Positions 1 through 60,530 of a stretch of DNA of 64,000 bases are shown piece by piece. Made by a program: the position numbers and the translations under genes. Source of the DNA: Psammoneis japonica (taxonomy: Eukaryota); contig QPGO01000058.1 in NCBI GenBank assembly GCA_008632985.1, positions 310,001 through 374,000 of the forward strand, given 5' to 3'. Within the stretch, counting starts at the first letter, position 1, and each line of letters begins with the position of its first letter. The notes under the pieces were generated by a model. The model searched no databases and was not told the DNA's origin. It saw nothing but the letters and a program-made list of their open reading frames with translations.

Positions 1-1160
1 GATCAGGCTGGGACCTGGCGCCAAAAAGCTCCTCCTCAAAGTCTCCCCAAAAAGCCCCAAAAGAGATCAGGCACTCACAGAACATGCTGAAATTAGAAAA
101 TTTAAATGCAAAGAGATGCAACAGCATGATGGCACCATCCCCCCGAGTGCAGACACAACAAAGTGTCCCCTCCGACACCTTTTGGTTTCTCTGTCATTGG
201 CGCAACTGCCTGATGTCCCAAAGTGCCCAAGGAGGTTGGCATTCCACCACACTCTCACAAGGGACAATCCTGCAGGCACTTGCATGGAATTGTGGTTTTT
301 GTGTCAGAGACAAAAGAAGTTGAAGAAGTGAGTGGGGTGCTTGGCTTCACATGGATCAGGTGGGGGCCAACACATTCGCCCGACGCGACACACACGTCCT
401 GACAAAGTCATCATTGCTGATGGCACTGTGATTCTACACAATTCTTTGGGCATGAAAGACAAAGTTGTGAGAGGCATGATTTCAACAGCTTGAAGGAGAC
501 ATTGTGGCAAATTGAATTTGCCCCAATTGCAAATTGTGCACATGCGTGCAACCAAAGCTTCTCTGTTGTGTCCCATTTAGTTGTGTGCGAAACAAGGTGT
601 GAACCATTTTGTCCTTCCCACACAAATCTGCCATTTTGTCCCGCACTGACAAAAAGAAGATGTTCAAGAAATGACTGGTTGATCATGACATCTCAATCAC
701 TGTGATGTGATGATGTCAGTGTGTTCTTTTTGAAAGATCGATCTTTCTGAGGTGTCAGCTTCCGATGCATGGCATGTGACATGCACACAAGATGTGTGGT
801 GCAAACAGGCACATGCACGCATGCACACATGCACTCAGCTGACAAAGCAAAGCCCTGTGCTCCCCCAGAAGTGGGCCTGCCTGGTGCAGCGACTGGGCAA
901 GCTCTCTCTTTGTGCCTTCTCTTTGTGCCTTCTCTTCTGCATTTCTTGGCTAAATGACCCAAAAGGATGCTGTGTTTGTCCCCAAACAGTTTTTGGAGCA
1001 ACGGGCCAGCTTGCCAAAAAGAGGCCCATGTGCAACAACAACCTGGCACAGAAACAAATGTCGGGGTGTGGCTCTCTCTCCTTGTGCTTTCCTCTCTGCC
1101 ATGTTGCAAAAACATGGCAAAACAGTGTTTCACTTTCTTGCACTGCTGCAAAACAATCTC

Positions 1161-1559
1161 GATGTGTTCCAGCTCTGGGTGGGACCTGTGCTGCTGAACT
1201 GTGACATCAATGGTTTTTTAGATTATGCCGCATGTCGCGCATGCAGATGGCTGCATGTGACATTCTATGAAATTGTTTCATGCTTCCTGTTTTGCGAAGC
1301 CAAAGGCTTTCTATTTTCAACATTTGTGAGAGTGAAAATGCGCTGGGTGTGTTCTTTGGTGTCTGCAGAACATGCCCGTGCAAACTGTCAATGACATGCT
1401 TCAAGTGTGAAGGAGGAGATGCATTCATAAAATTGCCTCTTTTTCTGTTGGTGATCATTTGTGTTTTGGTCACTTGATGAATTCACCATGGAGCTTGCAC
1501 ACAGAGTTCTGTCATGGGCCCAATGTCACACGGAGTCCCACCTGGGGCTGGAACCCATC
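1161..1559 (+). mobile_element. Non-autonomous TIR element (MITE family A), copy 1
   Basis: Imperfect ~25-bp TIRs GATGTGTTCCAGCTCTGGGTGGGAC...GTCCCACCTGGGGCTGGAACCCATC, flanked by a 4-bp direct repeat TCTC/TCTC. Colinear with 30836-31230. Confidence 0.85.
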
Positions 1560-1687
1560 TCTCAAACAAAGGCTCGTTTGGCGCTTGCATCTGCAGCGGG
1601 CACTGCAGTGTGTGTGCATCAAAAGGAAGGAGGAGAAAAGATGTGCTCGCACACTCCTTGGGCTTTCCAAGACAGGGTCAGAGCTTG

Positions 1688-1990
1688 TGCACACAACAAC
1701 ATGTGAAAAAAGTGAGGTGCGCAGCTCCTGTGGCAAGTGACAAGACAAGGGGCTCAAACAACACATTCTTCTTCTTGTGCAGCCAATGGCTTGAAGATGA
1801 AGTGGTCCCAGATGAGTTTGCAGCCACCCAACACTGAGCTGCGGTGCAGCAGGATGAGAGGTGTGTGCTCATTTGCGCTTCTTGCCACACTTGCGCAAGA
1901 GCGATGCTGCGTCCACAACACCAATCATGTCAAATTGATCTGTCCGCTGGCCACGCCCCACTCCCGGATTTAGATTCGGATTCCGCTCAC
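1688..1990 (+). repeat. ~300-bp dispersed direct repeat (second copy at ~2870-3255)
   Basis: Shared blocks GCACACAACAACATGTGAAAAAAGT, CATTCTTCTTCTTGTGCAGCCAATGGCTTGAAGATGAAGTGGT and GCCCCACTCCCGGATTT. Confidence 0.8.
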
Positions 1991-3325
1991 CACCTTCCAA
2001 CCTACCCATCTTTGCACGTTTTGGTTTTTTGCGGGTTTCCCTGCTCCCATCAACCTGCCAATGCACAATGCTTTGCTTTGTCTTGCAGCACCTTGCCACC
2101 CTTGAATCTGGAAAGTCATCTCACATGCCATTTTGCCAGTGGCAGCAAAACAAGAGAGAGAGCCCTTGAGCCAAGAGAGTGCAGTGGCCCTTGCTTGTAG
2201 ACAAAATCACAGTGGTGTGGTCATGCTTGTGAGCCTGTCTCATCTTCAGGAGGTTTGGTGCTTGCATGAATCTGCAGAGCTCTGCGAAATGCAAACAATG
2301 TGTCTGGGCACTCCACAAACAACTGTGTTTGTCAAGCTGTTGTCAGGGTCAAAGATGGCTCAACAAGATGCTGCTCAAGCACAAAAATGTTCAAGATGTG
2401 CACTTGCAAAGCTGAGAAAATTTTTGTTCAGACACAATGTGTGCTCACACTCAAGCTCCAGCAAACAAATGATCTCACAAGCACCCGCTTCTGCAGCTGC
2501 TGCTGCTGGAAAGAATGACACTTTTGGTGGGTTGCCACATGAGGTGACATTGTGCCACACATGCCAGAAGTGGTGTGTGCCAGCCACTGCACTTTTGCCC
2601 AATCTGGAAAGCTCATTTTGCTGTGTGTTTCTTTGTGGTGCACCAGCACAGCAGCCCTGCACAAGAAAACAAAAAGAGCAGAAGAGTGGCAAGCAGTGCT
2701 TGAGCAGTGTGTGCCAAAATGGCAGTTGATGCACTTGCAGGGCTTTTGGGCACAAGTTTCCCCACAGTGCATTTGGCAGCTTTGAGATGATTTTTTGTTG
2801 ACTCTGAGCATGGTGCCATTTCTCAGCTGAGAAAATGGTGGGGACAGAGGCAGGGCCGGCTTGTGCTGCTGCACACAACAACATGTGAAAAAAGTCAGCT
2901 GCAGCTCCTGTGGCACCAAGCAAGAGAGGCAAACATTCTTCTTCTTGTGCAGCCAATGGCTTGAAGATGAAGTGGTTTCTCAGATCAGTTTGCAGCCCCC
3001 AGCCATGGTGAACCACAGCAGCATGAGAGGAGGCATGTGGGCATGTGCGCTTCTTGCTGCACTTGCCCAGAGAGCAATGCCATGTCCATCATCCATTGAC
3101 CACACCACCCAATTGTGTCAAATCAATCTGTCTGCTGGCCATGCCCCACTCCTGCATTGTGGAATTTGGATTCATGCTCCAATCGTGCCAAATCGATCTG
3201 TCCGCGCGCTGGCCTCGCCCCACTCCCGGATTTGGTTCGGATTTATTCCGCACCTTCGCCTTTTATTTGCACGTTCGGTTTTTGGTTTCCCTCCCTTCTC
3301 ACATTTTCAATTTCTGATTTTACAC

Positions 3326-4873
3326 ATGGGAAGTGATTTAATTATACGACCTAACGACAACGATGTGCTGTTGGGAAGAGGAAGGGCCCTTCGAGAGCAC
3401 AGTGGAAATCGCCAATTCATTCAGCTTGTGCGAAGCTACAAGAGCACGTATGATGTGGCCCCAAAACGGCATGTCAAGAACGAAATTGCGCACCGAATTC
3501 TTGATGCCGTGCATGCGAGGCAGGGACGCTTCTTGGAATTCACTGAATTATGCCAATGGAAAGAAATAAGTTCAGAGCGAGCCTTGCTGAAAGTCAAACA
3601 GGCATTGAGGGATTATGTTTACCAAAGGCAAGAAGGTATACATGGCAATCCAAACATACCGCAGAATCTGCCGACAACTTCGGAAAGCATTCAACTTCGA
3701 AAAGAAGAAAACTTCTTGCCCGAAACAGGGGTGCGAGTAGTCCCCGGGAAGATTTATCACATTGATGGGACAGACAGCATTTCTAGAATATTATCTGATC
3801 CACGAGATGGGGAACAATGTGATGTTTTCGCTCCCGAACCGTCGAAACAGCTAGACGAGGACAACACCGAAGAGTCGCTTCTCAACCCATTGGATGACCC
3901 ATTTATGACGAGTCAGGAAGTTGTGGCTGCCGAATTCTTGTTTTCCATCATGACGGAATCATGGTCTGGTCAGAAGCTTCCAGAAGATTTTGCGCTCACA
4001 CAAGAGGAAGAGCTTGCTGGCGTCGAAGACCTCTTTGGAAAGTTATGCGTCGCGACACCCCCACCTACAAAACGCTTGAAAACTACAGCAGATCGCGTTC
4101 CATCCAAATTGTCGGAAATGAAGCAACATTTAGAACTCATTCCGACAGTTGAGAAACAGGCTTGGATAGAGGCGCGGCAGAAGGCGCGAGATATAGAAAC
4201 CAACGACCAACGAATGGAGTTGTTTCTGAAACGGGAAAGCAATGATCCAGAGAGAGCAGCACGACGGTTCATTACATATTGGGAAGAACGACTGCAGTTG
4301 TTTGGGCCAGATAAGTTCTGTCTACCTCTATCGCTCGATGGAGCTATGAAAGATGCAGAAGCAGCTGTTCATGCTGGAGTGTTTCAACTGCTTCCTTCAT
4401 TTGATGAGTCAGGACGGCAGTTGATATTTGAAATGCCTTGTAGGAATGACTACAACGGATACGACAGCCGCAACTTGATTCAAGCGTACTGGTATGTCCA
4501 TGACGTCATATCATACCACCCCAATGCTGCCAATGGCAAAGTAGTATTATATTTTGCAAAAGGCGCATCAGCGTGGGATATTGACTTTGAACTAGAACGG
4601 GCCTTTTCTCATCTCGAAGAAAATGTGTTTCCAGTACCACTTCGTGGATCACACGTGTTTTCTTTATCTACTATTTTGTCCGAAGTCATGTTGCCAGTTG
4701 TGCTTGCCCTTCATGCTCGGTATCATCTTGCAAGACTTATCATACACAAGGTCTCGGAGGAGAAGATTGTGGAGACGCTATCATACTATGGTATTTCCAA
4801 AGATGCAATTCCTCGGAATATGGGAGGGACATGCGATTGTCAGCACTTGGAATGGATTGAAAGTCATTTCTAA
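3326..4873 (+). CDS. DUF6824-domain protein with C-terminal CRAL-TRIO/Sec14-like region
   Basis: ATG at 3326 in ORF 2861..4873. PNDNDVLLGRG..HSGNRQF..KVKQALRD is the diatom DUF6824 pattern. FLKRESNDPERAARRFITYWEERLQLFG and IPRNMGG resemble CRAL-TRIO-type motifs. Confidence 0.8.
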   Translation: MGSDLIIRPNDNDVLLGRGRALREHSGNRQFIQLVRSYKSTYDVAPKRHVKNEIAHRILDAVHARQGRFLEFTELCQWKEISSERALLKVKQALRDYVYQRQEGIHGNPNIPQNLPTTSESIQLRKEENFLPETGVRVVPGKIYHIDGTDSISRILSDPRDGEQCDVFAPEPSKQLDEDNTEESLLNPLDDPFMTSQEVVAAEFLFSIMTESWSGQKLPEDFALTQEEELAGVEDLFGKLCVATPPPTKRLKTTADRVPSKLSEMKQHLELIPTVEKQAWIEARQKARDIETNDQRMELFLKRESNDPERAARRFITYWEERLQLFGPDKFCLPLSLDGAMKDAEAAVHAGVFQLLPSFDESGRQLIFEMPCRNDYNGYDSRNLIQAYWYVHDVISYHPNAANGKVVLYFAKGASAWDIDFELERAFSHLEENVFPVPLRGSHVFSLSTILSEVMLPVVLALHARYHLARLIIHKVSEEKIVETLSYYGISKDAIPRNMGGTCDCQHLEWIESHF

Positions 4874-21245: not shown

Positions 21246-21299
21246 ATACATTCTCTGAGTTGCAATTCCATTTTGATGTTAAGTTTTCTCGCGGCAGGC

Positions 21300-24200
21300 A
21301 TCATTGGCATTTTCTGCTTAACTCTCATCTCATCACAGCGTTTGGTTTTCATGGTGCCACATCTTTCATTTTTGCCACTCTCTTGTTTTTCTGTCCCTGT
21401 GTCACAAGAAGTTGACCCAACATCAAGCCTTTGCACAGCTCTGGCTTTTGCCACTTCTGCCGCTCAGCCAACTCTCTCTCAACCTCACTTGCTCTGAGGG
21501 GTGCTGGCTGTGCGAGGCAGAGAGTGCTTGTCGTGCACAACACTGAGAAAGCCTCCTTCCTGCCCTTCAGCATGAGCACAAGATAGCCAGCTTTTGTGCC
21601 TTCCTCTTCTCTCTGGTGTTTGGCTGTCACACCGGCAGCAGTGTGCCCTGCACCAAAGACAGGAAAAGAAGAAAAAAGCTGTGCAGCACAGTGTGGCCAT
21701 GTGCTGACTGCACAGTGAGAGCAATTTTTTTCTCACTTTTGCAGCATCATGTTCTTTTTTGCAAGAAATGGCAGTGGCAACAGCAGCAGGAAGTGGCAAA
21801 TGTGCAAGCAGGGGGCAGCAAAAAGCAGCCACTTGGTGCTGTCATGACAGCTTGTGGCAGCCTGCTCAAAAAGAGTTGCAGTTTCTTTTTTTTTCAAAAA
21901 GAACTTTCAGTTTTCAGCCCAGTTGTGCCACAATTGCACTTTGTGCTGATGTGACATGTTTGCACATGCTGGATGTGACAAACTTTTGTTTTGAAGGGTT
22001 GCTTGGTGTGCAGGTGCCAAAGACACATGCAAGTGCAGACTTGTTGCAATGGCGGGTGGTGGCCAACTTGTCCACCATTTCCTCTGAGTTTGGGATCCAA
22101 CCCAGCAGATGCTCTGGCATGGCTGGCTCTCTGCCCACATGTGGTGTTGTGCTGTGCTGGTTGTGCATGTGTGAGAGAAAACAAAGAGATGGGAAAGTGA
22201 GGCTGAAGAGCTCAAGCCATTGTGTCCAATGCAACAAAGTTTTAAAAGGAAAAAATCAGAGGCACCGCACCAAAAACTGAGGATGGAACAGAGAAGCAAA
22301 AGAACCTTTTTTTTGTTTTGAATGAGCTCTCAGCCCAAACAAGCCAAGAACAGCCTAAGACAGAGGAGCTCTCACAAGAAAAAAAGCCACTTCAAAGGAG
22401 ACACAATGGATGTGGCTGGGAAACAGCCAATCCAATTGAGAGAGCAAATTGCTCACCAAAGCTGTGTGCGCAGTGCCATCTGAATGAAGCAGAGGCAACT
22501 TGGCTTGCTTGCGACATTGTGCATGATTGGGCAGGTGTCTGTGGGGTTCCACCCCTGCTGCCATTTTGCAGCATGCCACCCCCCTTGCATCACAGCAGTG
22601 TTTCATGCCTTCTCTGTGCTTGGATTCCTCAATGGCCACTGAGTCTTCATGGAGTGCATTGGCTTGTGCCCCCTGTTGTTTTGTGCCAGTTGCACACAAA
22701 TCTCTCCCCACAGCATGCTGAAGCTTGCTTCTTTTCTTGCACTTCACCTCTTGTGTCAACCCAATCCTAGCACATCAATCTGAGTTGGCTCTGGGCTCAC
22801 ATGCAGTGATCACCCACATGAAAACACACGCAACTGAAGCCTGTTTTGTCATGTCAAATTTTGCAACACCCATCATGCCCACCAGCAGTGGTGTCTGGGA
22901 TTCATTCATGTGATGACAACATGCCTGCACATGCAGCACCCGATCTCCTCTTGCCCCACAAGGAGAAAGAGCAATGTGTTTGCAGCTGGGGCATGAAGTG
23001 CCATGATGTCCAAGAGAGTTTTCATGCTTGAGCCAAAGCAGGCAAAGACAAAGCTTGTGCCAGTCAATGTGTGTGTCTGTGGCTTGGAGGCGACTTGGAA
23101 AAAGTGGAGAAATGGGGAGTGAAGTGGCACTGGTGAACACACCTGGGAATGTCTTGCAATGCCAATTGACAACTTGGTTCAGGCTCCTTTGGCAAGGCAT
23201 CATTGGAGTGTCAATCAACTGTGCTCTTTTGATGGTGGCAAGAACCCCTCTGCACCCTTGCTGTTGGCAAAGATGACAACTCTGATGGTGGTGGTTGACC
23301 ATCAATTCTTTATGATGAAGGGTTCTGACAAGCTGTGTTTTCACTGTCCCAATGTCCCAATGAACTCCTTGTTGATTGAGACAAAGACTTCACCATGCAG
23401 CAAGCACAACCAAACGTTTGATGAGCACAAAGCATTTGCCAAGCTAAAAGGGTGCCAAGACAGATTTGAAGGGCTGAGTTGATTGGCAGTGCTGGCACTC
23501 TTGACTTGTTTTGACAAAATCTTGCCAAACCTTGCACCAAACTCACCAAAGTTGACAAAGTTGCCAAAGCTGACAAAGTCACCAATCTCACTGAAGCTGA
23601 CAAAGTCACCAAACTTGTTGCCAAAGTGGACAAAGTTTCCAAAGTTTGGCAAAAAGTTGAGAAAGTCGACAAAGTCACTAAACTTGCCAAAGTCACCAAA
23701 ATTGATGAAATCACCACAGCTGACAAAGTTGCCAAAGTTGATGAAATCATCAAAGTTGGTGAACTCGCCAATCTTGCTAAAGCTGACAAAGTCACCAAAC
23801 TTGCCAAAGTGGACAAAGTCACCAAATCTCAGTGCTGACAAAGTTGCCAAAGTTGCCAAAAGTTGAAAAGTTGCCAAACTTGCCAAAGCTGACAAAGTCA
23901 CCACAATTGATGACATCACCACAGCTGACAAAGTTGCTAAACTCACCAAAGCTGACGAAGTCACCAAACTCACCAAAGTTGACAAAATTGAAAAAGCAGT
24001 CACCAAAGTGGACAAAATCGCCAAAGTCACCAAAGTTGACAAAGACACCAAAGTTGACAACAAAGTCACCAAACTTGACAAAGCTGACAAAGTTGAAAAA
24101 GTTGCCAAAGTTGACAAACTTGCCAGAATCGCCAATGGCAGTCACTGTCGTCAAAGGTGAGAGACACACAACATGCCAGCCAGAACCCTTGTGTTTGATC

Positions 24201-25177: not shown

Positions 25178-25693
25178 TATACACATGCAACATCATTCGC
25201 TCTACGGTCATCGTGAGGGCATCGATCGTATGGGCGGGCCCGCCTCACGACGTTTTCAGGGGCTCCGTTTCTGTCGAGAACTCTGAGAATTCTCGTCATG
25301 CATGTATCATCATGCATGTATCATCATGCATTACCATTTTAAAATATAAAAATGATAGAACTTCAGTGATGAATATAAATTTTATTTTCACAGCCGTTAC
25401 CGCGCGCATGCAATGGAATTTTGGCGCCAAGAGCTGGTCAAGAGTCAGAAAAATTCCAATGAAACGTGGCAGTGTGAGGTGTGAGCTCACAAGACTCGTT
25501 TGAAACTCAAAAAGAGGCCAACGGAATGTCCGAGTTTGACCACGAGATCAGCTTCCGATCGGCCCATTCTTTTTGGTTGTTACGAGAGTACGTACATTCG
25601 CATTGCTAAGTATCCCCACCTGACTCTCTTGCGTAATTGCATTTTCAAAACATGACACACAAATTTGCTGTAAGACTGGAAGAATATCAGGAG

Positions 25694-31230: not shown

Positions 31231-31287
31231 TGCAGCAAGAAAAGGATGGCAAAAGAAGCAAGATGGAAAGTTTAAAATGGTGCGCTG

Positions 31288-31675: not shown

Positions 31676-31954
31676 GTTGCTGCAAGCTGCCACCTGGTCG
31701 CCATGCGCCAATCCATGGGTGGTGGAGCAGAGGCTGCAAGTGCCTTTCTTGGTTTCTTGAATCTTCCAGGTGGGAACTCCTTTCGTTCTGAGGCTCGGTC
31801 TGCAGGTGAGCCACACCGAGTTGGATCACGGGATTGGATCTTGTCAGACTTCCGTCAGCCACAGGTGGAACCAGGTCAGATTGCAGATCAGATTTGACAT
31901 CTTGATGCATCGCAAAGCAACATTGGTTTTGAGATTCCAAATTCCCAAATGACA

Positions 31955-38274: not shown

Positions 38275-38830
38275 CCACCATCTCAGATCGGACGGTCTTC
38301 GGAGTGAAATGTTTTGCTCCGAAGACCATCCAGTCCAAAATCTGCATCAAATGTTGGATCTAATTTGCAAGATTCTGTGCTGTCATCACAACAATGGCAC
38401 AACATCACATGATTGTGACACAGAATGGCCAAGATTCAGCCACAAGGGCAAGGAACATCCTTGGCTTGTGGTCAAAGTCTTCCAATGCTCAAAATGAAGA
38501 TGAGAAAGGTCACATGGCAACAGAGTGGCTTGTCAAACCAACAAAGCCACACAGATTGTTGGAAAATCATTGAACAAGCAAAATGACAAGCATTTGCCAC
38601 ATGATTTGAGATTTCAACACAACAACATGCACTGGTTTTTAAATTGCAAAAGTGATGGCTTTTTCTTCCTTGGCATTGCTGCGAACACTGAGTGACAATG
38701 ATGCTCAATGATGCGGGTCACACATGCATGTAAAGTGGCAACAACAGCATGGTTCTGTTGTCATGTTGTCGTGACAAGATGTGAAGCATCTTGGCAACAC
38801 TTCTTGTTGTCCGCTGTTGTCAGCACTTTG
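38275..38830 (-). repeat. Inverted copy of 31955-32520
   Basis: Reverse-complement similarity along the whole length. Confidence 0.8.
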
Positions 38831-39920
38831 TTCGCGATCAGTGCCAGCAGCAAAAGGCTCCAACTGCCTCCAGTGCCAGTGGCACACAGGATCCCATCAC
38901 GCCAGTGCTGGCAGCAACATGCAGGCTCCCATTGCAACCACTGGCCAGCAGCAAAAAAGCTCTGTGGTGGCATTGTCAGCAGAGGCAGTCACATTTTCAG
39001 CAGCTGCACGACTGGCCATCGCAGTGGTCTCATTCATGATGGCTCCCATGCTCTCCACAGCAGATGTGTTGTCCATGTTAGTCCAATGGATCACTGCAAC
39101 ATTTGACAGTCTTGCTGAACACTGCTGCAATGGCAACGTCTCCATTTGCATGCTCCAGTTGTGTGTCATCATTTGCCAACTTGCGGTTTTGCCTTTTCTT
39201 GACAGGGTTGATCTTGAAGTCTGCAATTTGAATGCAAGCCCCACTGCAACAAAAGAAAAGTCACTGTCATTCCCAACTGCAATGACAATCGTTTTTTGAA
39301 TCAGCATTTGCTGAATTTTGCTGTCGGTGTGAAATGCCCCATGAGAGCAATTTCCAGTTCACCCGGGTGCATCCTCATCTCCAACTCTTCAACCACACTC
39401 TCTCCGTGACACTCCTCACACACACTCTGGTGCAAGACAACATGATGACACGTGGTCTCACAATCCACACCAACCACTGGTTTTCCCTGATGACGCCTGT
39501 GAGTTTCTCAATCTCATGCAGGAATTGTGACCCATGGTCAATTCCCATGGCTGCTGCTCAAGAATGCATCCCATGCAATTGTGACGGTGTGGATGACAGG
39601 CTGCCATAACGCATGACACCTGAGGCAGCACAGGAACTGCGTCAATCCAGTGCTTCTACTTGTGTTGCCATCATCAGCAGCGACGTGTCATTCCGACGGT
39701 TGGTGTGATGTGGGCATGATGTGATGATTTTTGGTTTTTGCAATCTGTGATCTGATGGAAGGACAGGCAGAGTGCGACCATTTTTTGAACCTGTCTCCAT
39801 GCATGTGTGTACCGGTAGACTAGAAGTAGTAGACGAGCCTCACCCGTGACTCGAGGCCAACGCGTCGTCACAGGCCATCATGACACGACCACATTCCTGT
39901 TGCTGTTGTTGGAAAACACC

Positions 39921-42350: not shown

Positions 42351-42809
42351 TGTGAGATTATGAGAAAGGTATGTTGAATGTTGAATGTGAAATGTGATGC
42401 CGCGTGGCGTGGTGCTTCGAAAGATCGAGTCGAAGGATTCAAGTTTTGGCATTTTACTTCGTTTTTGAGCATTTTTTGAACCTTCTGCCTTGTACCGGCA
42501 TTGTTCAGTTGGCAGTTTTTCTTCATCCTTCGGCATGTGGAGGGTCTATCCAAGAAGTGTGCCACAAGAACACCCCCAGAGCCAAACACCACCAGAAGCT
42601 TGTGACTGAGCATCATCATCATTGGGGTGCCTCACAGAGTGTTGGTGTGCCAAAGTTGCTTCAGCAAAACAAGTGAGAAGCTGCAAAAGTTGGCAAAGAA
42701 GAGTCATTCCAAGAAGGGCTCAATTTTAATTCTTCTGGTCTTGTGGCAAGATGTCTTGGTCTGTCATCTGGGGAGTGGCCCAGGATGGTCAGCATGGAGA
42801 GCAACCCAC

Positions 42810-43540
42810 CAACAACCCACAAAGCAGCAATCTTGTGCAACCCAGTCAGCATCGCTTCATTGGCAGGCTTTGCAAAACAGTCTGTGAGTTGTTCAACAGC
42901 ATCAACGGCAGAGCAAATGCAGCAATTTTGTCCCATCTGGTTTGCAGCCAACACTTTCAAATGTCTTTCCCATTTCCAGCACACACCGCCATTGTTCTTG
43001 AAAATTTTGCCGTGGACTTTTGGGGTCAAAGGTTTCTTGGCTGGAAATTCATGGGCCTTGAGCTCCCTTGAGATTTCCATGGCTGGTGTTGCCTCCTCAC
43101 ACAGTGTGCACAACAAAACAGCATGCTTGCTTTCTGTGCCAGGACAAGCAGTCTTGGTGTGCAGCAGCCACAGCTTCCACAGAGTGGGCAATCCTCCAGC
43201 ACAAGTGTGGTGGTGCAACCATGCCCCAATCTTGCAGCACTGTGATCTTCCAACAGTGCTTCTTCTCCATTCCAGTTGCCAACAAAGTTGGTTGGTGACA
43301 AAGTCAGCATCAACACAGACCTTGAGGTCTTTGTTTTTGACCACAGCTTCAGAACAGCCCCTTTTCCATGTGTTGCATGGAGGCACTTTCATGTCCACCA
43401 AGCAGCTTTGCAGTGCTCCACCTTTGCCAGGTCAGCAGAGAATTTTGCACACTTGTGGGTTCTGCAGGCAATGTCATTTGAGTCTTGTGCACTTCTCAAC
43501 ACAGCTCAATTCCCTGGCAAGACCACTACAGCAGCCAAAC
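42810..43540 (-). mobile_element. Ty1/Copia RT C-terminus and RNase H remnant
   Basis: DIACRTHKCAKFSAD, LKVCVDADF, PTLWKL, TESKH, KIFKNNGG and EQLTDCFAKP correspond to DIAYA.HQCARF, VYVDADF, TESEY, FEDNSG and QLADYLTKP. Confidence 0.85.
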
Positions 43541-44839
43541 AACTGATCAAATGGATCAGAGATTGAGTGCCTCTCAATCAACAGGATTGCAGAAGAAGGT
43601 TGTGACCTTCATTCTAACATCAACCACTGTTTCCATTTCCTGATCTGAAGATGCCCCTTTGAGCACTCCTCTCTTTCCCAGCTTTCTTGACCTTGCTCCT
43701 TTTTCTGCTTCTTTGCTTCACATCTCTAAACTGCAATGTTGCTCCACAACCCCCCTGTTTTGCCCACTCCATGCTCAACACTGACATGCTCTGTCAGGGT
43801 TGGACACTCTGCCAGGGTGGGTCAACAACACACCAAGTCAGCTTCAGCAACAAGTCCATCAGATGGGCACCCAGCATTTGATTGAGAGTCTTCTCTCTGT
43901 CTCTGGCCACTTCCGTCATTTGCCCATGCCCTGAACAGAAATTTTGCAATGCTTTGTTCACACTCTTTGTGACAAAAAGCTGTGGCAGCATGTCAATCTG
44001 TTGTCTTGCTTGAATTTCTAACTTTGTCAGTTTTCCTCTCATGATCACATTGCTTCTCTGTTGTTCTTGAACACTGATGTCCCTGCCCAACAATTGCAAG
44101 CTGTTTCAGCTGTTCAAAAGTGCTTGTTGTTCATGTGCTGCTGCGCAAGCCCTTCACCAAGCTGAGTGCCATTCCCTGATGTTCACAAACCTGAAGCTGC
44201 TGACAACCCTGAAGATGCTGGTGGGACACTCAAGATGCAGCAGCAGAGACTGTGGATGACCTGGACAGTGAGTCTGCTGACAAACTGCCTGGCAAAAACA
44301 CCCCCACTCCATCCCTTGTTCCCTGTTCCCATTCACCATCCTTAAACCAGAGCCTGTTTCTGTTGCCTCTGCACATGACTCTTTTTTGCCAAAATGTTTT
44401 TGTCATTTGTCAACCTCCTGCCTGACTTCCCTCCCAGCCTCCTGCTGTTCCCTGTGTTGTTCAAGTTGGCCAGCCTGAGTCTAACCTCATCATGCTCACA
44501 CACCCCTGTCATTTGTTTCATCCATTGGTGGATTCAAAACCCTCAAAATGAAGGCTCCTGATCCCCTGTTGACAGCCACTTTTTGCCTGAAACCATGAAG
44601 ATTTGAGCTTGCAATTTGCCTTGCAACAGTCATCTCATCCATCCTCAAAAGGTTGACAACCAAGTGGCAGCCAAGGTAACTCAACAGTCATGCAGACAGC
44701 TTTTGCTTTTACATTGGCTGAACACTTCATTGTGTGGGTCCTTTTGACTGCACAACCATTTGACTTGTTTCTGCATGGCGCCAAATGCAAAGCAGAGTCT
44801 GAAGAAATCTGAGCTGCAATGTCTGTTTGCCAAGTCTCT

Positions 44840-45240
44840 CATCTTCTGGACAGCCTTGTCTCTCCATGGCAGCAGTGATGACAAAACTGGAGAATCAAGA
44901 CCAGGGTGCAATGGCCTGCCCACTGAAACAAAGTGTGGCCAGCCCCTCTTCCATGGGCACAGTCCCAGATGCTGTGCAAGATGTGTTTTGCCACCACAGG
45001 GAGACAACAGAAAATTGAGAGCTCCTTTGTGTGGAGCTTTGGAACACGTCCAATGAGACCAACTTGTTGTCCTTTATCAGGCAACAGAAAAGTTGGCTGA
45101 GGTTTCACACAGTCCTTGCTGATGCTGCCTTGGTTGTCCACGTGTGCAACAATGCGGAGAGCAGCCACACACACGACCCCACACATGCATTGTTCTGCAT
45201 TCACACCAGACATCATTCGACAATGCCCGTGGCTGGGACG
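44840..45240 (-). mobile_element. Possible second Copia RNase H C-terminal remnant
   Basis: RMMSGV...HVDNQG....KP and a terminal HGET loosely resemble CoDi LRMMGV..GDNQSV..P and FW.GDT. Confidence 0.45.
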
Positions 45241-46040
45241 AGGATTCTCTGGCATCAGCAATGGCTCCATGTGGAATGTAGAAGCTGTTCTTCTTGATGG
45301 ACTCTTGAGTTGTTGTCATCTTCTACCGCAATTCGGAAACCATTGTCAATTGTTCAATTTCTCTCCTTGTCACACGCGAAAAAAGGCAAAAAATTGTTGG
45401 TCCTGTAAGTGGGAGCGATTCGTAAACACGAGCTCGAAATTCGGACAAGCGCACATGTGGACGAGTGCGGGCATGACCGACATTCGCTCGGCGAATTCAA
45501 TTTCGCGCCAAAGTCAACTAATGCATAACTTTATGTACATTATCATTAAATCTCGATGATGTTGGACGTTGTTACGATGCTGTGATGATTTACATCCTGT
45601 GTTTCAGTCCAACACTTGTAGACTATCATGCGCAAAAAGGGTAATTTTTCTGCTTTTTTTGCATTTTTGAACATTTTTGCCTTTTCTGTTTGTACGGTAG
45701 GTTTTGTTCCTTGTCCATGCTGACTGTAGAATCCTCGCACTGCCGTGAGCACAGAATTATGGATTCATGGCCATGAGGACTTGTGTGAGGATGCCCTGAC
45801 CATGACAACTCTCCCGTTTAGGTCAACGCCACCGACCCACCAACTCGAGCAATAAAACAGCACTGAAGATGGGCGACGAAGGCAGAGCTTGAAACTGTGA
45901 CAGAATCAATTTCCCGAATGGAAAAGTCAAGTTGAACTTGATACACAAGCAATACACCTCCTTTTCTCAAAAGCTAGCACTGCAGGTTTTCTGTTGCTTC
46001 AACACATCAGTTACTGTTATTGAAAAGAATCGCACCCCGT

Positions 46041-53857: not shown

Positions 53858-54499
53858 AGAAATGGTGGTGATTGGTGCTTCTCCAACGATATCGTGGTGT
53901 TTTTGTGGAACAATGTGCATGTTTGAATGTGTCGGTTTGATTTAATGTTGTGTAGTCAGCTTTGTCTGCTGGCTGTAGATTGTGAAATGTGATAAAAGAT
54001 TGTTTTAGCATAGAGAGAATGTCCAATCGCTTCTTTCATCGAAACCGGTGTGAGTTGGCCTGTACTTCAAATGTTGATATTGATTCTTAGTAGCTCATGA
54101 CGAAGCAGGGGGGTGCCTCAGAGGGAGGGATGCAAATACATGATGACGACTTAGTTTTGAGATTGCGACGCACTGAAGCGTTACCGCATTCTGTGCTCTA
54201 CGAAGTAAAATGGATAAGAGATATGGGTGTCGCAAAAAGGAGAAATTCAGGGTACCGGAAACAAAAGAACGAGTGTCGAGTTTGACTTCTTTTGTTCCCT
54301 AATTGAGTTTGGTCCTAATCAGAAGCAGGCTGCTTGAAGAAGTCGCGGCTCGTTCTACTTTTGAACAATTGACCTTCCTAATGCCACACTTGGTGCAACC
54401 AACAAGGCCAATGATTCTTTACAAAGGAATTCACATGTGTTCGGTTGGCACGACTCACTCGCAAAGCACGTCTCGAGGTTGCGCGGTTGGATTTGGAGA

Positions 54500-55640
54500 G
54501 TTTTGAAGTGTTTTTGTGAAAATGTTTTTGTGCCCCTGTTTTGACCGAAAAGACAACAAAGAGTGCCACCGCCAGCCCGCTTGACCCCCAAGATTTGCCC
54601 GGCTCAGCAGCCTCGATTTTGCTGTGGTTGACAGTGTCCATGTTGGAACATCTGGAAGACAGGAAATTTAAGGAATCTGGATGTGTTGAAGAAAGACACT
54701 GATGCTGCTCCTCATGACGCCGTGGAGATTCTCTTTGACTCTTTGTGGTTGAAGCTTCATTGTTGCGCCGCCAGCCAATCTCTCTCGCCTTTCCACTTGT
54801 CCACTCTTTGGAGCAAATAATTTGGTTTGTTCAGTTTGTGCCATTTTGTCAAAATGGCACCACTGGGCATTTGCTGTGTTTGAAGTTGTTTGAAGTTTGC
54901 GTCAACAACTTCTGGGCAACCCATGGCTGCGACAAGCAGCCAGCAGCACATGTGCGCTGGCCAGCTGGGGGCTGCAGGAGTGGACAACAACCAAAGCAAC
55001 AACAAAGACAAATGTGGGGCAAAGCCTGACCCACAATGATGATGCATGTTGGCTTTGCACTGATGTGGCCTCACCTCAAGCACTTCATGGCTGCACACAA
55101 ACATTCTCCAAGCAGCGTGTGGTCCAAAAACAACTTTGTCGGGTGGGGAGCAACATTCTTTGCAAAGGTTTTGGAAGCAGAGTTTGCAGCATGAAAATGA
55201 ACAAACAAACAACAAGCACAGCAAAATGTCTCTTGATTTGTCAAGAGACACCAGTGTGCTGAAAAGAAGTGCGGGAGAATCTTGGCTTTCTGTGTGATGG
55301 TCTTTTTTGAGAGTGCTCCTCATTTCACATCAACTTTGTGCGCACACAATGAACATGCCCCAACATTTGCTGAGTTCTGGGCAGCAACTTGGCTTCTAAT
55401 TGCAGTTTGCAATGCTCCACAATTCTCAGCCATCTTGCTGCTGATGATGGACCCGCACATTTGGACATTGCTGTGCCAGGAAATGACACCACCGCGGCGC
55501 AAGCACAAAGTGGCCAGACAGCTGCAAAAATTTGACCCACTGTTGCACCATGTGTGTTAGGTTTCAATGGATCTTCTCAATCTCTGCAGAAATGTGCACA
55601 AAGCCAGCACCTCATGGTGCCAGTGACAAGCTCACCCACG
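54500..55640. mobile_element. Decayed repeat block 6
   Basis: Only a handful of TpA, TG/CA-rich. No recognisable protein motif. Confidence 0.6.
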
Positions 55641-57430: not shown

Positions 57431-57473
57431 AAGCACTATTTCAAACGTACAGTAATCCCATTTCTATAACGCG

Positions 57474-59217
57474 CTATTCTTGTTCTTTTTGCATTTTGTC
57501 CCACTCTTCCACAAGTCTCCTCAATTGATGCATGAGAATCCATTCGTATGTTTCCTCGACACTCGCCACCACCATCTTCTCGATATCGTCGTTGAGAACA
57601 TCCTGCAACTGGCCAAGATTAGCGTCGTACAATGGATTGGACGATTCCTGTAGAGCCGTAACGGATCCGTGCTGTTCACCCCACGACGACGCTAGGGACG
57701 GCACGAGGGACCAAACGGGCGGCACAGCGGGATACTGTGCCGTGTCAATTGTGACTGTGGCTCGCAGTGTCGCGGCCTTGCGACGAATCATGGCGAGAAA
57801 CGACCTGCAATGTGGCCTTGTTTCGTTGCTTTCTACAGTCCAACCTACTAATTTGGACGAACAATCATTGCCAGTATCAGTAGCCGTCATGGACGGATGC
57901 ATGGGGATCGGATTTGGCTTTCGTTTTTCCAAGATATTAACAAATACTGTAGAGTCGTGTTCGCTCGAAGTCGAACAAGCAGCGCATTCATGACTGCTTT
58001 GGTATTGTGCTGCAAGGGTTCGTCTTGTTGCTTTGGCGACGGGAATTGCAGACCCGAAATATAGTTGCACCAATGATAAGGGCGCCCCAACAAATTGCTT
58101 TCCAAATCCTCCAATGTGAATTGTTCTTGTTGCATCAGGTTGGATCCGTTCAAGGACACGCTGCCATTGTCACCGGGAAACAGATTGACCAACAGAGATG
58201 AAAGATCCACCACCTTGTCATCACAACCGTATGCCCGAGCTGTGACAATCTGGAGCTTGGGAATGTAATCAAAGTGAATAGTCACGCGGCGTTTCGAGGT
58301 GGATTTGCGTCTTTCACATCCGGAATGGGTAGGCGCAGCAAGAGACAATTCGGATGGGGTTGAAACCATTCTTGTTGTTTGTTTGATAGCTTGCCATCCG
58401 AGTCTTTCGACGATGAAATCTCCAACTCCAACTCCTTGTCGGTGTACGCATCCACATAGGACTGAAGCTGGACAAAGAGTGTGTAGAGCGGAGCTGACAA
58501 GTCCGTCAGCGCCTTATTAAAGAGTTCTTGCCGTTTGGTTCCCAATAAATGACTAGTCGTCGAAGGTGATTTGGCAAAGAACTTTTGGAGTGGCAAACTT
58601 GCCGTCTCCACGCCCTTCAAGGTTTTTGGCAAATCCTGCAGGAACCGACGCGTCTGCTCAACTTGTTTCTTCTTTTCCTCGAGAGCACGCTTTTCCGTCG
58701 TGACTTGCCGCTCCAACGTACCACGCATATTCAGTTCCTTATGGAGTTTAGCCATGACGATCTTTTGCTGACTGGCGTCCATATGTGATGTTTCTGCAGA
58801 ACCACACAAAAACTTATTTACGATGGCCTCTGCAGACACCTCCTCAGAAGCAGGCAAAAGCTCATCACGGCTCATTTTTTCCAATTGCGGTGTGGCAAAT
58901 TCCTGGAGGGATCGACACTGCTTTTGTAAGTAGGACTGTTCATATAGGAGATTCTGGAGCTGCAATCTCTGCGATTCTAGCTTTTGGCGCTTGGCCTGAA
59001 CGGCCTCTTGCTTTTGCTGCATGTTGCTCAAAAGCTTTTGCTGCAGCAGCCTCATGGTAAGCAACGTTGTGGATGCCTTGTTGGAGTTTTTCACGTCATT
59101 AACGTCCTTTAGAAACTGAGTCACGGCCTCTTCGTGCAGCATGGAGAGTTCATCTTTGGACGACGACGACGACGACGCATCTAGCCGTGCCTTTTTCTTG
59201 ACGGGTTCATCCGTCAT
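57474..59217 (-). CDS. THOC5: THO complex subunit 5-like protein
   Basis: LQLQNLLYEQSYLQKQ, KLHKELNMR, FLQDLPKTL...ASLPLQKFF, LSAPLYTLFVQL, GRPYHW. Split by frameshifts over ORFs 58282.., 57887.. and 57474... Confidence 0.8.
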
Positions 59218-59489
59218 GGTCGGGGTGCTGTCGCGGTGTGCCGTGTTCGCGCCTTGGGCCTGGGGGGCCTGGGTTTTGCTATCCTGCGCGCGCGCTGCCT
59301 TGCGGCGCTGTGCACGAGCCGGTCGACAGGCAGAACTCGTTGGCGGATGATTGACAGACAGGATCTTTCTGCACGACCGACATAACATGACATACGGTAA
59401 GAGACGGCTGGACTGCACTGCACTGCCACGGTCAAACAAGCACATCATGCATGTGGTAAATGTAAACGCCACACCTGCCATTACCTTCT

Positions 59490-60530
59490 ACACAAATGAT
59501 CCCATGCCCGAACGATGGAAAGACCACGGTCACCATGCGACCGCTTGCTGGACCAATCTTTTCTGGAGAAAAAGCAGAGTTGCCTGTGTTTCTCTCAACT
59601 TGTTGTGCCAGCATGAGTGCCTGTTGCTGCACAACTCGGTTGCTGGCAATGCAGGCTCTCAGGCTGCAGGTTGCATGGTGGGTTGTGAGGCTGCTGCACC
59701 TTTCAAATCACTCTCTTGCTGGGTTGTGCTCCACTCTCCACACTCGCTCTCTTTTTTCAATCTTGTCGGGTTGGCTTTGGCGGGGAGCAACAATGTCCTG
59801 CAAAATTGCTGCTCCTTTGAGCTCACCTCTTTCTTTCTTCTTCTGCTTTTCTTTCCTCCTTTTCACATGATGTCAACCTTGGGGGTGGTCATCCCACAGC
59901 TTGATTGGGGCTCAACCACACTTTCATCCCCACAAAGTCTGCAGCCTCTGTCACAAGGCCCGCCTTGGGGCTGTGGTGCTGCACACACAGAGGGTCTTGT
60001 TGGACAGCAAAAAAAAAGATGAGTTTCCTTGCCAAGAGGCACAAAGAGGAGGTTGATGAGTGGCCAAAGGGCAGTGCATGCCTGGATCAGCTCCAATGCA
60101 AGTGTGCAACCGCAGTCACTGCAATCACAGATTTGGGGGGCAAAAATCAATTGCCCTTGCGTGCTCCTGTTGCACCTCCACCCAGCAACAGGCCACCTCC
60201 CCACACTTTCAGTGCACCGGGCATGCGGCAAAAGTGATGAGGGTTGGCCTGTTGCTCCAGCACCACTCTGTGGTCTGTGGCACCCACCCAAAGCAACCAG
60301 TGTGCAGCAATGTGATCATGGATCAAACTCACCTGACTTGGTTGCCAACTGAAAATGGACCCAATGTGAATGAACCAGGGAGATGTGGAAGCACGAGGCA
60401 ACATGGAAGAGAAATTCCAACATGGCCAAGGTGCTCATGAGCTAATGTGCATGCCACAGATGGTGGTGGGCGACTCAAGATTGGCGAGATGCTTTTGCAG
60501 AGCGAGGCTGGTGTGGACGCGACTGACAAT
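59490..60530. mobile_element. Decayed repeat block 7
   Basis: Essentially no TpA between ~59490 and 60440. CpG is also low. Confidence 0.65.

What the first reader, a model, noticed from the sequence alone, without database searches (positions are those of the whole stretch)
1..60530. Candidate 'reverse-RIP': transposon-targeted TpA->TpG/CpA hypermutation
Seen: seven sharply bounded blocks (~21 kb) of TE/repeat DNA are almost free of TpA (about a dozen in the first 3.1 kb by eye), are TG/CA-rich, and give Tyr-free, Cys/His-rich translations. Adjacent genes use TpA normally. Established: CpG->TpG/CpA decay follows 5mC deamination, but it cannot remove TpA. Neurospora RIP does the opposite (CpA->TpA). 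Inference: a second mutational process converts A:T to G:C at TpA on both strands of silenced repeats. It would remove Tyr codons, TATA boxes and TA target sites, and could be a genome-defence system. Candidate mechanisms are a TadA-like DNA adenine deaminase (TadA-derived editors prefer TA), error-prone Pol-eta-type repair synthesis (WA->WG) recruited to methylated DNA, or mispairing of a modified base. I do not recognise this as described. No causal enzyme is visible in this window.
Basis: partly seen in the sequence, partly recalled or inferred. Interest (0 to 1): 0.95.

Follow-up and report, generated by a model that had tools for sequence, protein, structure and literature searches.

The report
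TpA-erased repeat relics in diatom-like genome
A third of this stretch of a diatom-like alga's genome is old repeat DNA in which nearly every TA and most CG steps have been turned into TG or CA, the long-term footprint of a TA-specific mutation process so far reported only in one 2026 preprint on an unrelated alga.

Summary
Seven sharply bounded blocks (about 21.5-23 kb) hold 73 TpA where 777 are expected at flank density. CpG falls to about 29%, and TpG and CpA rise by the same amount. Accurate-k-mer contigs of a public run reproduce one block in full, and an unrelated metagenome contig (L011) carries the same kind of block, so a base-calling artefact is unlikely.

Repeat copies differ mainly by TG versus CA at the same place. 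More abundant relatives in the same sample read TA at 9 places where the window reads TG or CA. This supports TpA->TpG/CpA conversion after the copies diverged.

The process is no longer undescribed. A 2026 bioRxiv preprint measured TpA-only A:T->G:C hypermutation of integrated viral DNA in Bigelowiella natans.

New here:
- a stramenopile host (nearest named relatives are diatoms);
- saturation of the signature;
- a separable, slower CpG decay;
- a flank rule: RTAY almost extinct, YTAR surviving about 27%, repeated in L011.

No transposon or viral protein domain was found in the blocks, so "TE" is shown only as "multi-copy repeat", and only for parts of three blocks. The enzyme is unknown. An adenine deaminase is the leading guess and is untested.

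The parts
1..3339 (.). Block 1, TpA/CpG-erased; runs off the left end of the window
   Evidence: TA o/e 0.074, CG o/e 0.295, TG 1.83, CA 1.75. Right edge lies between 3200 and 3400. Holds copies of the ~400-nt repeat unit.
21246..25229 (.). Block 2. It lies between two paralogous LRR-gene units and includes a 9-nt-period tandem array at about 23480-24250.
   Evidence: TA o/e 0.071, CG o/e 0.322. Tandem families D1/D3.
24600..25200 (.). Margin of block 2 where TpA is erased but CpG is normal
   Evidence: TA 2, 0, 2 and CG 13, 12, 16 per 200 nt. This shows that the two depletions can be separated.
28192..33041 (.). Block 3, partly a very high-copy repeat. Left margin 28200-28600 is TpA-poor with normal CpG.
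   Evidence: TA o/e 0.052, CG o/e 0.523. Summed contig depth is 5,572-66,222 across 29536-32071 (five bins), against about 55 in genes. Margin counts.
34796..39816 (.). Block 4, partly high-copy repeat
   Evidence: TA o/e 0.046, CG o/e 0.251. Depth 7,639-43,099 at 35242-37143.
42371..45423 (.). Block 5, the most fully erased and single-copy by depth
   Evidence: TA o/e 0.078, CG o/e 0.167. One 6,534-nt contig of run X1 (k-mer depth 67) covers 41441-46000 with 8 other letters and 3 gaps. Depth is 67-76, the same as the flanks.
54317..55600 (.). Block 6 core. A partly depleted tail reaches about 56200. Left margin 54400-54800 is TpA-poor with near-normal CpG.
59458..60624 (.). Block 7; abuts the 5' end of the THOC5-like gene
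   Evidence: TA o/e 0.09, CG o/e 0.352. Edges. Neighbouring gene.
1143..1560 (+). Copy A of a ~400-nt repeat unit
   Evidence: 83.7% identical to 30836-31231 in letters but 96.4% in purine/pyrimidine code. Aligned in A1.
29556..29959 (-). Copy D of the repeat unit, inverted relative to copy B. A short palindrome at 30291-30431 lies between them.
30818..31231 (+). Copy B of the repeat unit, in the region of highest depth
31279..31706 (+). Copy C of the repeat unit
31954..32512 (+). Segment shared, inverted, with 38297-38832 in block 4. Here more abundant relatives in the sample read TA where the window reads TG or CA.
   Evidence: 79% identity in letters, 89.7% in purine/pyrimidine code. Polarised places 32200-32396.
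38297..38832 (-). Inverted partner of 31954-32512
   Evidence: (I1-I3).

Best explanation
What the blocks are. They are relics of repeated, presumably silenced DNA in a stramenopile whose nearest named relatives are diatoms. Two context-specific transition processes have rewritten them in place.
1. Ordinary decay of methylated CpG to TpG/CpA. This is slow and varies between blocks.
2. A faster process that converts TpA to TpG or CpA (A:T->G:C on either strand) and has run almost to completion.

Link to the known case. The second process is of the same kind as the TpA-only hypermutation measured directly in Bigelowiella natans mutation-accumulation lines (2026 preprint).

Flank rule. RTAY sites are essentially gone, YTAR sites survive best and the mixed classes lie between. 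This points to a preference for A followed by a pyrimidine (5'-TAY-3'), or equally for T preceded by a purine.

Consequences that can be seen in the sequence:
- loss of Tyr codons;
- loss of TAA and TAG stops, so long spurious ORFs appear in all six frames;
- loss of any recognisable protein domain.

What is shown and what is inferred. Shown: the composition, the independent TG/CA resolution among copies, the polarity at a few places, the flank rule and its repeat in a second organism. Inferred: that the blocks are methylated or silenced, and that the process works on DNA in place. My leading guess for the chemistry, held at about 0.4, is deamination of adenine to hypoxanthine by a TadA/ADAT2-like enzyme brought to silenced chromatin.
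For: Composition. Lost TA (-33/kb) plus lost CG (-41/kb) equals gained CA (+42.5) plus TG (+37), and all pyrimidine-purine steps together are unchanged.

Copies.
- In 2,235 aligned columns of block repeats there are 270 transitions and 142 transversions. TG-versus-CA double differences are the commonest class (55). In control gene duplicates (2,958 columns) the counts are 309 and 268, and that class is not in the top 14.
- Transitions hit bases inside Y-R steps at 192/957 against 54/898 elsewhere. Controls give 134/1089 against 141/1267.
- Copies A and B are 83.7% identical in letters but 96.4% in purine/pyrimidine code.
- In the four-copy alignment, 67 places are Y-R in all copies. 19 show {CA,TG} only, 14 keep CG in some copy, 6 keep TA in some copy (3 of them {CA,TA,TG}) and none shows {CG,TA}.

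Polarity. 35 of the 40 difference rows shown lie in blocks 3 and 4 (488 more rows were not shown). More abundant relatives read TA where the window reads TG or CA at 9 places, and CG at 3 places. One of the 9, at 31543, is carried by 31 contigs holding 50,027 of 74,202 depth.

Not an artefact. One 6,534-nt contig with k-mer depth 67 reproduces all of block 5 with 8 other letters. L011, a low-coverage contig from an unrelated metagenome, has a 2-kb block (7201-9200) with 17 TA and 23 CG between normal flanks.

Flank rule.
- Of the 73 surviving TA, 37 are YTAR (flanks 230/1301) and 2 are RTAY (flanks 383/1301); chi-square 58.4, P 1.3e-12.
- Estimated survival is RTAY 0.9%, RTAR 6%, YTAY 10% and YTAR 27%. 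CG survival is flat at 0.25-0.32 (base level).
- L011 repeats it: 14 of 17 survivors are YTAR, against 109/509 in its flanks.
- In mixed contexts the strand favoured by a TAY rule takes 0.63-0.80 of the gains in all 8 blocks.

Two processes. Three margins are TpA-erased with normal CpG. CpG survival ranges from about 0.1 to 0.5 between blocks, while TpA is at its floor in all of them.

Outside evidence. The preprint reports 230 of 231 new mutations in two integrated viral regions as A->G or T->C, all at TpA, at about 6e-7 per site per generation. It also reports 124 TpA-poor, CpA/TpG-rich clusters in that genome.

Rough inference from its numbers. 211 mutations over 6,169 TpA and 3,132 generations is about 1e-5 per TpA per generation. 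At that rate erasure to the level seen here would take on the order of 2e5 generations.

Diatoms methylate transposons. Loss of DNMT5a removes DNA methylation and de-represses young TEs in Phaeodactylum (PMC9998398, abstract and passages).
Against: - No methylation, chromatin or expression data exist for these blocks, so 'silenced' is an inference.
- No TE or viral protein domain was found in 173 window ORFs or 15 L011 ORFs.
- Block 5 is single-copy by depth, so the target class is unknown.
- Polarity rests on few places, most of them from two contigs within 240 nt. The run may be the sample the window was assembled from, and its platform is not on record.
- Ancestral composition of the blocks is taken from flanking genes. 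This is safe only for purine/pyrimidine classes.
- At the 7 polarised mixed-context places only 3 follow the TAY rule and 4 do not. A regression could not separate the TA and CG contributions to the strand bias.
- The order of TG and CA along the blocks shows no strand-coordinated runs (z from -1.9 to +2.2), so there is no sign of processive single-strand action.
- The one ADAT2 tested on DNA, from amphioxus, prefers GAA for adenine, not TA (PMC10354150 passages).
- CpG loss shows no TCG bias that would tie both losses to one deaminase.
Confidence: 0.75

Rival explanations
1. A modified thymine, not adenine, is the mutable base. A TET/JBP-type enzyme oxidises T in TpA steps of silenced DNA to 5-hydroxymethyl- or 5-formyl-uracil (or a J-like base). 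This base mispairs with G, or is repaired with errors, and gives T->C. The process would parallel 5mC->T at CpG.
For: - The signature is strand-symmetric at a palindromic step, so T->C and A->G cannot be told apart.
- The flank rule reads equally well as 'T preceded by a purine'.
- It runs beside a base-modification-driven decay (CpG) in the same domains.
- Recalled, not checked here: dinoflagellate 5hmU and kinetoplastid base J favour T before A, and 5-formyluracil mispairs with G.
Against: - My search found no paper on 5-hydroxymethyluracil in diatoms; the 12 listed of 15 hits are all about dinoflagellates (listing only).
- No enzyme candidate was examined.
- TpA-erased margins with normal CpG show only that the domains differ. 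They do not say which base is hit.
Confidence: 0.2
2. RNA-level editing followed by reverse transcription. Repeat transcripts form double-stranded RNA, an ADAR- or ADAT-like enzyme edits A after U, and the edited copies are reinserted. On this view the elements arrive already mutated.
For: - Block 3 holds inverted copies of the 400-nt unit and a palindrome, which could give hairpin RNA.
- ADARs favour a U before the edited A, as the preprint's Discussion states.
Against: - Both strands are hit equally and are interleaved site by site.
- ApA is not depleted, although ADARs also accept A before the target.
- TpA erasure reaches into margins with normal CpG and covers a single-copy block.
- Copies differ by independent TG/CA choices.
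- In B. natans the same signature arises in place in a single-copy, transcriptionally silent region.
- Recalled: ADARs are confined to animals.
Confidence: 0.05
3. Sequencing or assembly artefact. Modified bases in heterochromatin are miscalled by a long-read base caller, so TA and CG are written as TG or CA.
For: - The platform of the runs is not on record, and they may be the source of the assembly.
- A strand-specific miscall would also give a TG/CA mixture.
Against: - A single 6.5-kb contig with k-mer depth 67 matches block 5 with 8 differences. Strand-specific miscalls would split the k-mer graph at every site.
- An unrelated metagenome contig of short-read-assembler type shows the same block type and the same flank rule.
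- Block copies also differ by 142 transversions in 2,235 columns, so they are truly old and diverged.
- Illumina mutation-accumulation data show the process is real in B. natans.
Confidence: 0.03
4. Intrinsic composition or selection. The elements were always TA- and CG-poor, for example through horizontal origin or avoidance of a nuclease or binding site. Alternatively, error-prone Pol-eta-type synthesis (WA->WG) is responsible.
For: TpA is under-represented in the flanks as well (o/e 0.53).
Against: - Relatives in the same sample carry TA at the mutated places.
- Copies resolve the same site to TG in one and CA in another.
- Block translations are Tyr-free and match no protein family, which no functional element would tolerate.
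- AA is not depleted, against a WA motif.
Confidence: 0.03

Closest known systems
TpA-specific hypermutation of integrated viral DNA in Bigelowiella natans (bioRxiv 10.64898/2026.01.13.699255; abstract, Results and Discussion read)
   Same: - The change is the same: TpA->TpG or CpA, depending on the strand.
- It is confined to bounded regions of non-host-like or unannotatable DNA next to normally evolving genes.
- The long-term footprint is the same: TpA-poor, CpA/TpG-rich clusters of 3 kb or more.
- Most affected ORFs have no annotation.
   Different: - The host is a stramenopile with diatom affinities, not a rhizarian. The best protein matches in the database are 47-65% identical, and the named ones are diatoms at 44-45%.
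- The signature is saturated here (TpA o/e 0.05), against 0.45 in the viral region there.
- CpG is depleted too, which the preprint does not treat (0 occurrences of 'CpG').
- A flank rule is visible here.
- No viral or TE domain was found here.
Repeat-induced point mutation (RIP) of Neurospora and other ascomycetes
   Same: Bounded, repeat-associated transition hypermutation at a specific dinucleotide, which destroys coding capacity.
   Different: The direction is opposite. Here TpA is removed and G+C stays at 0.48. Dependence on duplication is not shown: block 5 is single-copy.
Decay of methylated CpG in silenced transposons (diatom TEs are CpG-methylated through DNMT5a; PMC9998398)
   Same: CpG falls to 0.17-0.59 of expectation with gain of TpG/CpA in the same blocks. 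WCG is lost slightly more than SCG, and there is no strong flank rule.
   Different: It cannot remove TpA. Its extent differs from the TpA-erased domain at three margins, and it is less complete.
TadA/ADAT2-type deaminases acting on DNA (adenine base editors; amphioxus BjADAT2, PMC10354150)
   Same: The natural target, A34, follows the invariant U33, so a T-before-A rule is expected (established knowledge). An ADAT2 can deaminate DNA in E. coli (abstract and passages).
   Different: BjADAT2 prefers GAA for adenine and TCG for cytosine. Here ApA is untouched and CpG loss has no TCG bias. No such gene is in the window.

Membership tests
TpA-targeted hypermutation of the B. natans type | Changes fall on TpA and give TpG or CpA | tested here: met
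   TA falls from 36.3 to 3.4 per kb with a matching TG/CA gain, and AA is not depleted. More abundant relatives read TA at 9 places where the window reads TG or CA. 6 places in the four-copy alignment keep TA beside TG or CA. The evidence is indirect, because CpG decay adds to the same products.
TpA-targeted hypermutation of the B. natans type | Clusters of 3 kb or more with TpA o/e <= 0.43 and CpA+TpG o/e >= 1.52 (the preprint's cut-offs) | tested here: met
   Five blocks of 3.0-5.0 kb have TpA o/e 0.05-0.08 and TG/CA o/e 1.64-1.85. Two shorter blocks show the same composition.
TpA-targeted hypermutation of the B. natans type | Rate raised about 1000-fold in mutation-accumulation lines, and episodic between lines | not testable with these tools
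   There are no lines or pedigrees for this organism. Only one sample with three runs was found.
TpA-targeted hypermutation of the B. natans type | Targets are foreign DNA (integrated virus, virophage, transposon) | tested here: inconclusive
   Parts of blocks 1, 3 and 4 are multi-copy. 0 of 173 ORFs has a credible Pfam match. One 245-aa ORF has two weak matches among 1.84 billion proteins. The atlas recognition score is low.
Fungal RIP | C->T at CpA, giving TpA gain and AT-rich DNA | tested here: not met
   TpA is lost, CpA is gained and G+C is unchanged.
Methyl-CpG decay | CpG depletion with TpG/CpA gain in repeats | tested here: met
   CG falls from 58.1 to 16.7 per kb. Some copies keep CG where others have TG or CA at 14 places.
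Methyl-CpG decay | 5-methylcytosine present on the blocks | not testable with these tools
   No methylation data could be reached.
Pol-eta-type WA->WG mutagenesis | A->G at both TpA and ApA | tested here: not met
   AA is 83.9 per kb in blocks against 72.9 in flanks.
ADAR-type hyperediting of retroelement RNA | Strand-clustered A->G with U or A before the site, carried in by new insertions | tested here: not met
   There are no runs of one strand. ApA is untouched. The erased domain includes a single-copy block and margins beyond the CpG-poor core.

The most novel reading that the evidence does not exclude
A chromatin-targeted DNA-editing defence that erases TpA, with an RTAY-type recognition rule, is shared by rhizarians and stramenopiles (diatoms) and may be ancestral to the SAR group. 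It acts several-fold faster than methyl-CpG decay. It turns invading DNA into Tyr-free, TATA-free, unannotatable sequence within roughly 1e5-1e6 generations. It thereby creates much of the 'dark', family-less repeat fraction and the long false ORFs of these genomes. Comparing the gene content of genomes with and without such blocks would then point directly to the enzyme.
Probability: 0.3. Interest if true: 0.9.

Novelty: new member of a known kind. Interest (0 to 1): 0.7.

Why it matters
- Standing of the process. In the literature I could search, TpA-specific A:T->G:C hypermutation is known from a single 2026 preprint on one chlorarachniophyte, and its enzyme is unknown. Finding its saturated footprint in a diatom-like stramenopile, and again in an unrelated metagenome contig, would make it a widespread force rather than a curiosity.
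- Route to the enzyme. It opens a comparative approach: which deaminase or T-modifying genes co-occur with the blocks.
- A testable fingerprint. The flank rule (RTAY lost, YTAR kept) can be checked at once against the published new mutations.
- Practical use. TpA-free DNA lacks TAA and TAG stops, so it yields long false ORFs in all frames and hides transposons from domain-based annotation. A third of this window is such sequence.

Tried and rejected
- Whole genome: none is held. Genome-wide scans and family consensus sequences could therefore not be made.
- Pfam on block ORFs: 26 plus 147 window ORFs and 15 ORFs in or overlapping the L011 block gave nothing credible.
- Purine/pyrimidine codon-periodicity scan for relic reading frames: the signal was too weak. 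The suggested frame in block 5 is full of stops.
- Protein atlas on a block ORF: recognition 919, no lead. The atlas on an unexplained flank ORF gave no taxonomy either.
- HMMER search of a 245-aa ORF from the high-copy part against 1.84 billion proteins: 2 weak hits. The best is E 7.5e-6 to an 87-aa ORF of no family, with one Tyr-to-Cys column.
- Purine/pyrimidine-coded self-comparison, to test whether the blocks are hypermutated copies of neighbouring genes: nothing new above the shuffled-query noise of 83 bits.
- Runs test for strand-coordinated TG/CA tracts: none found.
- Regression across 8 blocks to separate the TA and CG contributions to the strand bias: the two are collinear and were not resolved.
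- Naming the organism from protein hits: two searches and a cluster look-up gave no names. A third search gave diatom and oomycete names.
- Sequencing runs: no RNA holder was listed. All runs laid were contigs from one sample, so they give no read-level, strand or expression information.
- Earlier findings of this scan: none for this genome. A word search gave only phage cases that do not bear on this. A sequence search gave a chance match.
- Rfam and tRNA scans of the window: 0 matches.
- Literature searches for a diatom report of this signature found none (listings only). The only relevant paper is the B. natans preprint.

Full report
**1. The observation**

- Sliding 1-kb windows show seven stretches where TpA o/e falls to 0.00-0.15, CpG o/e to 0.03-0.6 and TpG/CpA o/e rises to 1.6-2.3, while G+C stays near 0.48.
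- Segmentation places them at 1-3339, 21246-25229, 28192-33041, 34796-39816, 42371-45423, 54317-56344 (core to about 55600) and 59458-60624.
- Block cores (21,506 nt) against flanks (36,007 nt), per kb: TA 3.4 vs 36.3, CG 16.7 vs 58.1, CA 113.1 vs 70.6, TG 110.4 vs 73.4.
- The sum of all pyrimidine-purine steps is unchanged (243.6 vs 238.4). The TA and CG that are missing are therefore present as TG and CA. AA is not depleted.
- At flank density 777 TpA are expected and 73 are found.
- Six-frame translations hold 0.09% Tyr against 2.02%, with Cys and His raised. TAA and TAG are almost absent, so ORFs are long in every frame.
- Edges are sharp to within 200 nt.

**2. Is it an artefact?**

- One search found three runs of a single sample, all kept as contigs, with the platform not on record.
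- Laid on 27000-46000, run X1 gives a 6,534-nt contig of k-mer depth 67 that covers 41441-46000. This includes the whole of block 5, with 8 other letters and 3 gaps.
- Strand-specific miscalls at modified bases would break a k-mer graph at every site, so this speaks against a base-calling artefact. The run may, however, be the source of the assembly.
- Independent support comes from a scan of metagenome contigs with the DUF6824 protein of the window. It gave 15 loci.
- One of them, L011 (a low-coverage contig of a microbial-mat metagenome whose DUF6824 protein is 34% identical), has a 2-kb block at 7201-9200. It holds 17 TA and 23 CG and about 41 TG+CA per 200 nt, between normal flanks.
- That is 1 of 15 loci. 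Of the five contigs with 8 kb or more held, it is 1 of 5.

**3. What the blocks are**

- Flank genes are eukaryotic: DUF6824, sulfatase, hydrolase, LRR, formin, FkbM methyltransferase and THOC5.
- The best database matches are only 52-59% (sulfatase), 47% (DUF6824) and 65% (formin, unnamed). Named formin relatives are Cyclotella cryptica (45%) and Thalassiosira profunda (44%), then Phytophthora at 26-28%.
- The host is therefore a stramenopile with diatom affinities. It has no annotated close relative in that database, and it is not Bigelowiella natans.
- Within the blocks, 0 of 173 ORFs of 75 aa or more has a credible Pfam match.
- Copies of a ~400-nt unit lie in blocks 1 and 3. One is inverted, with a palindrome between it and its partner. 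A ~550-nt segment is shared, inverted, by blocks 3 and 4.
- Summed contig depth reaches 5,572-66,222 across 29536-32071 and 7,639-43,099 at 35242-37143, against about 55 in genes, with 5,866 contigs laid. Block 5 has flank depth.
- So 'repeat' is shown for parts of three blocks. 'Transposon' is not shown for any.

**4. Evidence that the composition arose by mutation of the copies**

- In 2,235 aligned columns of block repeats there are 270 transitions and 142 transversions. The commonest dinucleotide difference is TG against CA (55). Gene duplicates in the flanks show 309 and 268, and that class is not among the top 14.
- Transitions strike bases inside pyrimidine-purine steps at 192/957 against 54/898 elsewhere. 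Controls give 134/1089 against 141/1267.
- Copies A and B are 83.7% identical in letters but 96.4% in purine/pyrimidine code.
- In a four-copy alignment, 67 places are Y-R in all copies. 19 show {CA,TG} only, 14 keep CG in some copy, 6 keep TA in some copy and none mixes CG with TA. TG and CA are two steps apart, so each such place needs a TA or CG ancestor.
- Polarity: one search showed 40 difference rows (488 more not shown), and 35 of them lie in blocks 3 and 4. More abundant relatives read TA where the window reads TG or CA at 9 places, and CG at 3.
- One of the 9, at 31543, is carried by 31 contigs holding two thirds of the depth. The window keeps TA once and CG three times where relatives have TG or CA.
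- Related contigs also run on into TA-rich sequence where they leave the window (loose ends).
- The family is therefore not inherently TpA-free. The numbers are small and come mostly from two contigs within 240 nt.

**5. Two processes, not one**

- TpA is at its floor in every block, while CpG survival ranges from about 0.03-0.1 (block 5) to about 0.5 (block 3).
- Three margins (24600-25200, 28200-28600, 54400-54800) are TpA-erased with normal CpG.
- CpG survival is nearly flat across flanking classes (0.25-0.32). WCG is somewhat lower than SCG, and there is no TCG bias. TpA survival, in contrast, depends strongly on the flanks.

**6. The flank rule**

- Of the 73 surviving TpA, 37 are YTAR and 2 are RTAY. 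In the flanks the figures are 230 and 383 of 1,301 (chi-square 58.4, P 1.3e-12).
- The purine/pyrimidine class of a neighbour is not changed by transitions, and the class make-up of all Y-R steps is alike in blocks and flanks. The comparison is therefore fair.
- Estimated survival is 0.9% (RTAY), 6% and 10% (the two mixed classes, which are reverse complements of each other) and 27% (YTAR).
- By base: ATA 3.5%, GTA 5.2%, CTA 12.5%, TTA 19%. TTAA and CTAA/TTAG survive at about 35%.
- L011 repeats this: 14 of 17 survivors are YTAR, against 109 of 509 in its flanks.
- In mixed contexts the product expected if A followed by a pyrimidine is the preferred target takes 0.63-0.80 of the gain in all 8 blocks.
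- Because CpG survival is flat, most of that bias should come from TpA. A regression could not separate the two sources, and only 3 of 7 polarised mixed-context places follow the rule.
- The flank dependence is firm. Which neighbour causes it is provisional.
- TG and CA are interleaved at random along the blocks, as expected from many independent events on both strands.

**7. Comparison with what is known**

- Searches for a diatom report found none (listings).
- One search led to bioRxiv 10.64898/2026.01.13.699255, of which I read the abstract, Results and Discussion.
- In mutation-accumulation lines of B. natans, two integrated viral regions mutate at about 6e-7 per site per generation. 230 of 231 changes are A->G or T->C, all at TpA, and they occur in 11 of 15 lines.
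- That genome has 124 TpA-poor, CpA/TpG-rich clusters, mostly without annotation. An ADAT2-like deaminase is proposed as the cause.
- The text does not mention diatoms or CpG or flanking context.
- From its figures I infer about 1e-5 per TpA per generation. That would erase TpA to the level seen here in the order of 2e5 generations, so saturation is the expected end state.
This window is a new member in another lineage.
- Added here are saturation, a separable CpG decay (plausible because diatom TEs are methylated through DNMT5a; PMC9998398) and a flank rule.

**8. Mechanism**

- What the sequence can say: the target is the TpA step with a flank preference, on both strands, confined to bounded domains, and faster than CpG decay.
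- Pol-eta-type WA->WG is disfavoured, because AA is untouched.
- RNA editing with reinsertion is disfavoured.
- Adenine deamination by a TadA/ADAT2-like enzyme fits the T-before-A rule. However, the one ADAT2 tested on DNA prefers GAA and TCG (PMC10354150), neither of which is seen here.
- A mutable modified thymine remains an equal-form alternative, because A->G and T->C cannot be told apart at a palindromic step.
- No candidate enzyme lies in the window.

**9. Verdict**

The finding is a new member of a kind known so far from one preprint. Confidence in the overall reading is 0.75, and in the deaminase chemistry about 0.4. Interest is 0.7.

Noticed in passing
window 19007-20883 and 25623-27496: A tandemly duplicated unit of about 1.9 kb holding an LRR-protein gene and its downstream region (75% identity). 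Block 2 lies between the two copies, and shorter repeats of the downstream region lie at 20620-20917 and 20961-21252.
   Followed up: partly
window 23480-24250: An array of 9-nt and 18-nt periodic repeats inside block 2. It is open in several frames and matches no family. It accounts for the local TG-over-CA skew there.
   Followed up: no
window 46222-51654 (-): A large formin gene (FH2 domain) split by a short intron near 47265-47443. It holds five 186-nt tandem repeats at 47833-48782 that match the proline-rich CCDC53 profile eight times. Its best named relatives are diatom proteins.
   Followed up: partly
window 27448-28293 (-): Only the N-terminal part (about 280 aa) of a P-type cation ATPase is present. 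It ends against the duplicated LRR unit and starts at the edge of block 3, so it is probably a truncated gene remnant.
   Followed up: no
window 33331-34218 (+): An FkbM-family methyltransferase gene sits in the 1.7-kb gap between blocks 3 and 4. Nothing links it to the signature, and such enzymes are usually small-molecule or sugar methyltransferases (recalled).
   Followed up: no
window, all blocks: TAA and TAG are nearly absent, so the blocks yield 173 stop-to-stop ORFs of 75 aa or more in about 23 kb, in all six frames. One of them extends the DUF6824 gene frame 500 nt upstream (2831-3340). Gene finders would call false genes here.
   Followed up: partly
window 29556-31231: Two copies of the ~400-nt high-copy unit lie in inverted orientation about 870 nt apart, with a 140-nt palindrome (30291-30431) midway. 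This foldback-like layout could give hairpin RNA.
   Followed up: no
L011 7201-9200: A 2-kb block in an unrelated metagenome contig is TpA-erased and CpG-poor. It lies between a DUF6824 gene and a hydrolase gene and has no Pfam match. Its right edge is followed by a 200-nt AT-rich stretch (G+C 0.25, 18 TA).
   Followed up: partly
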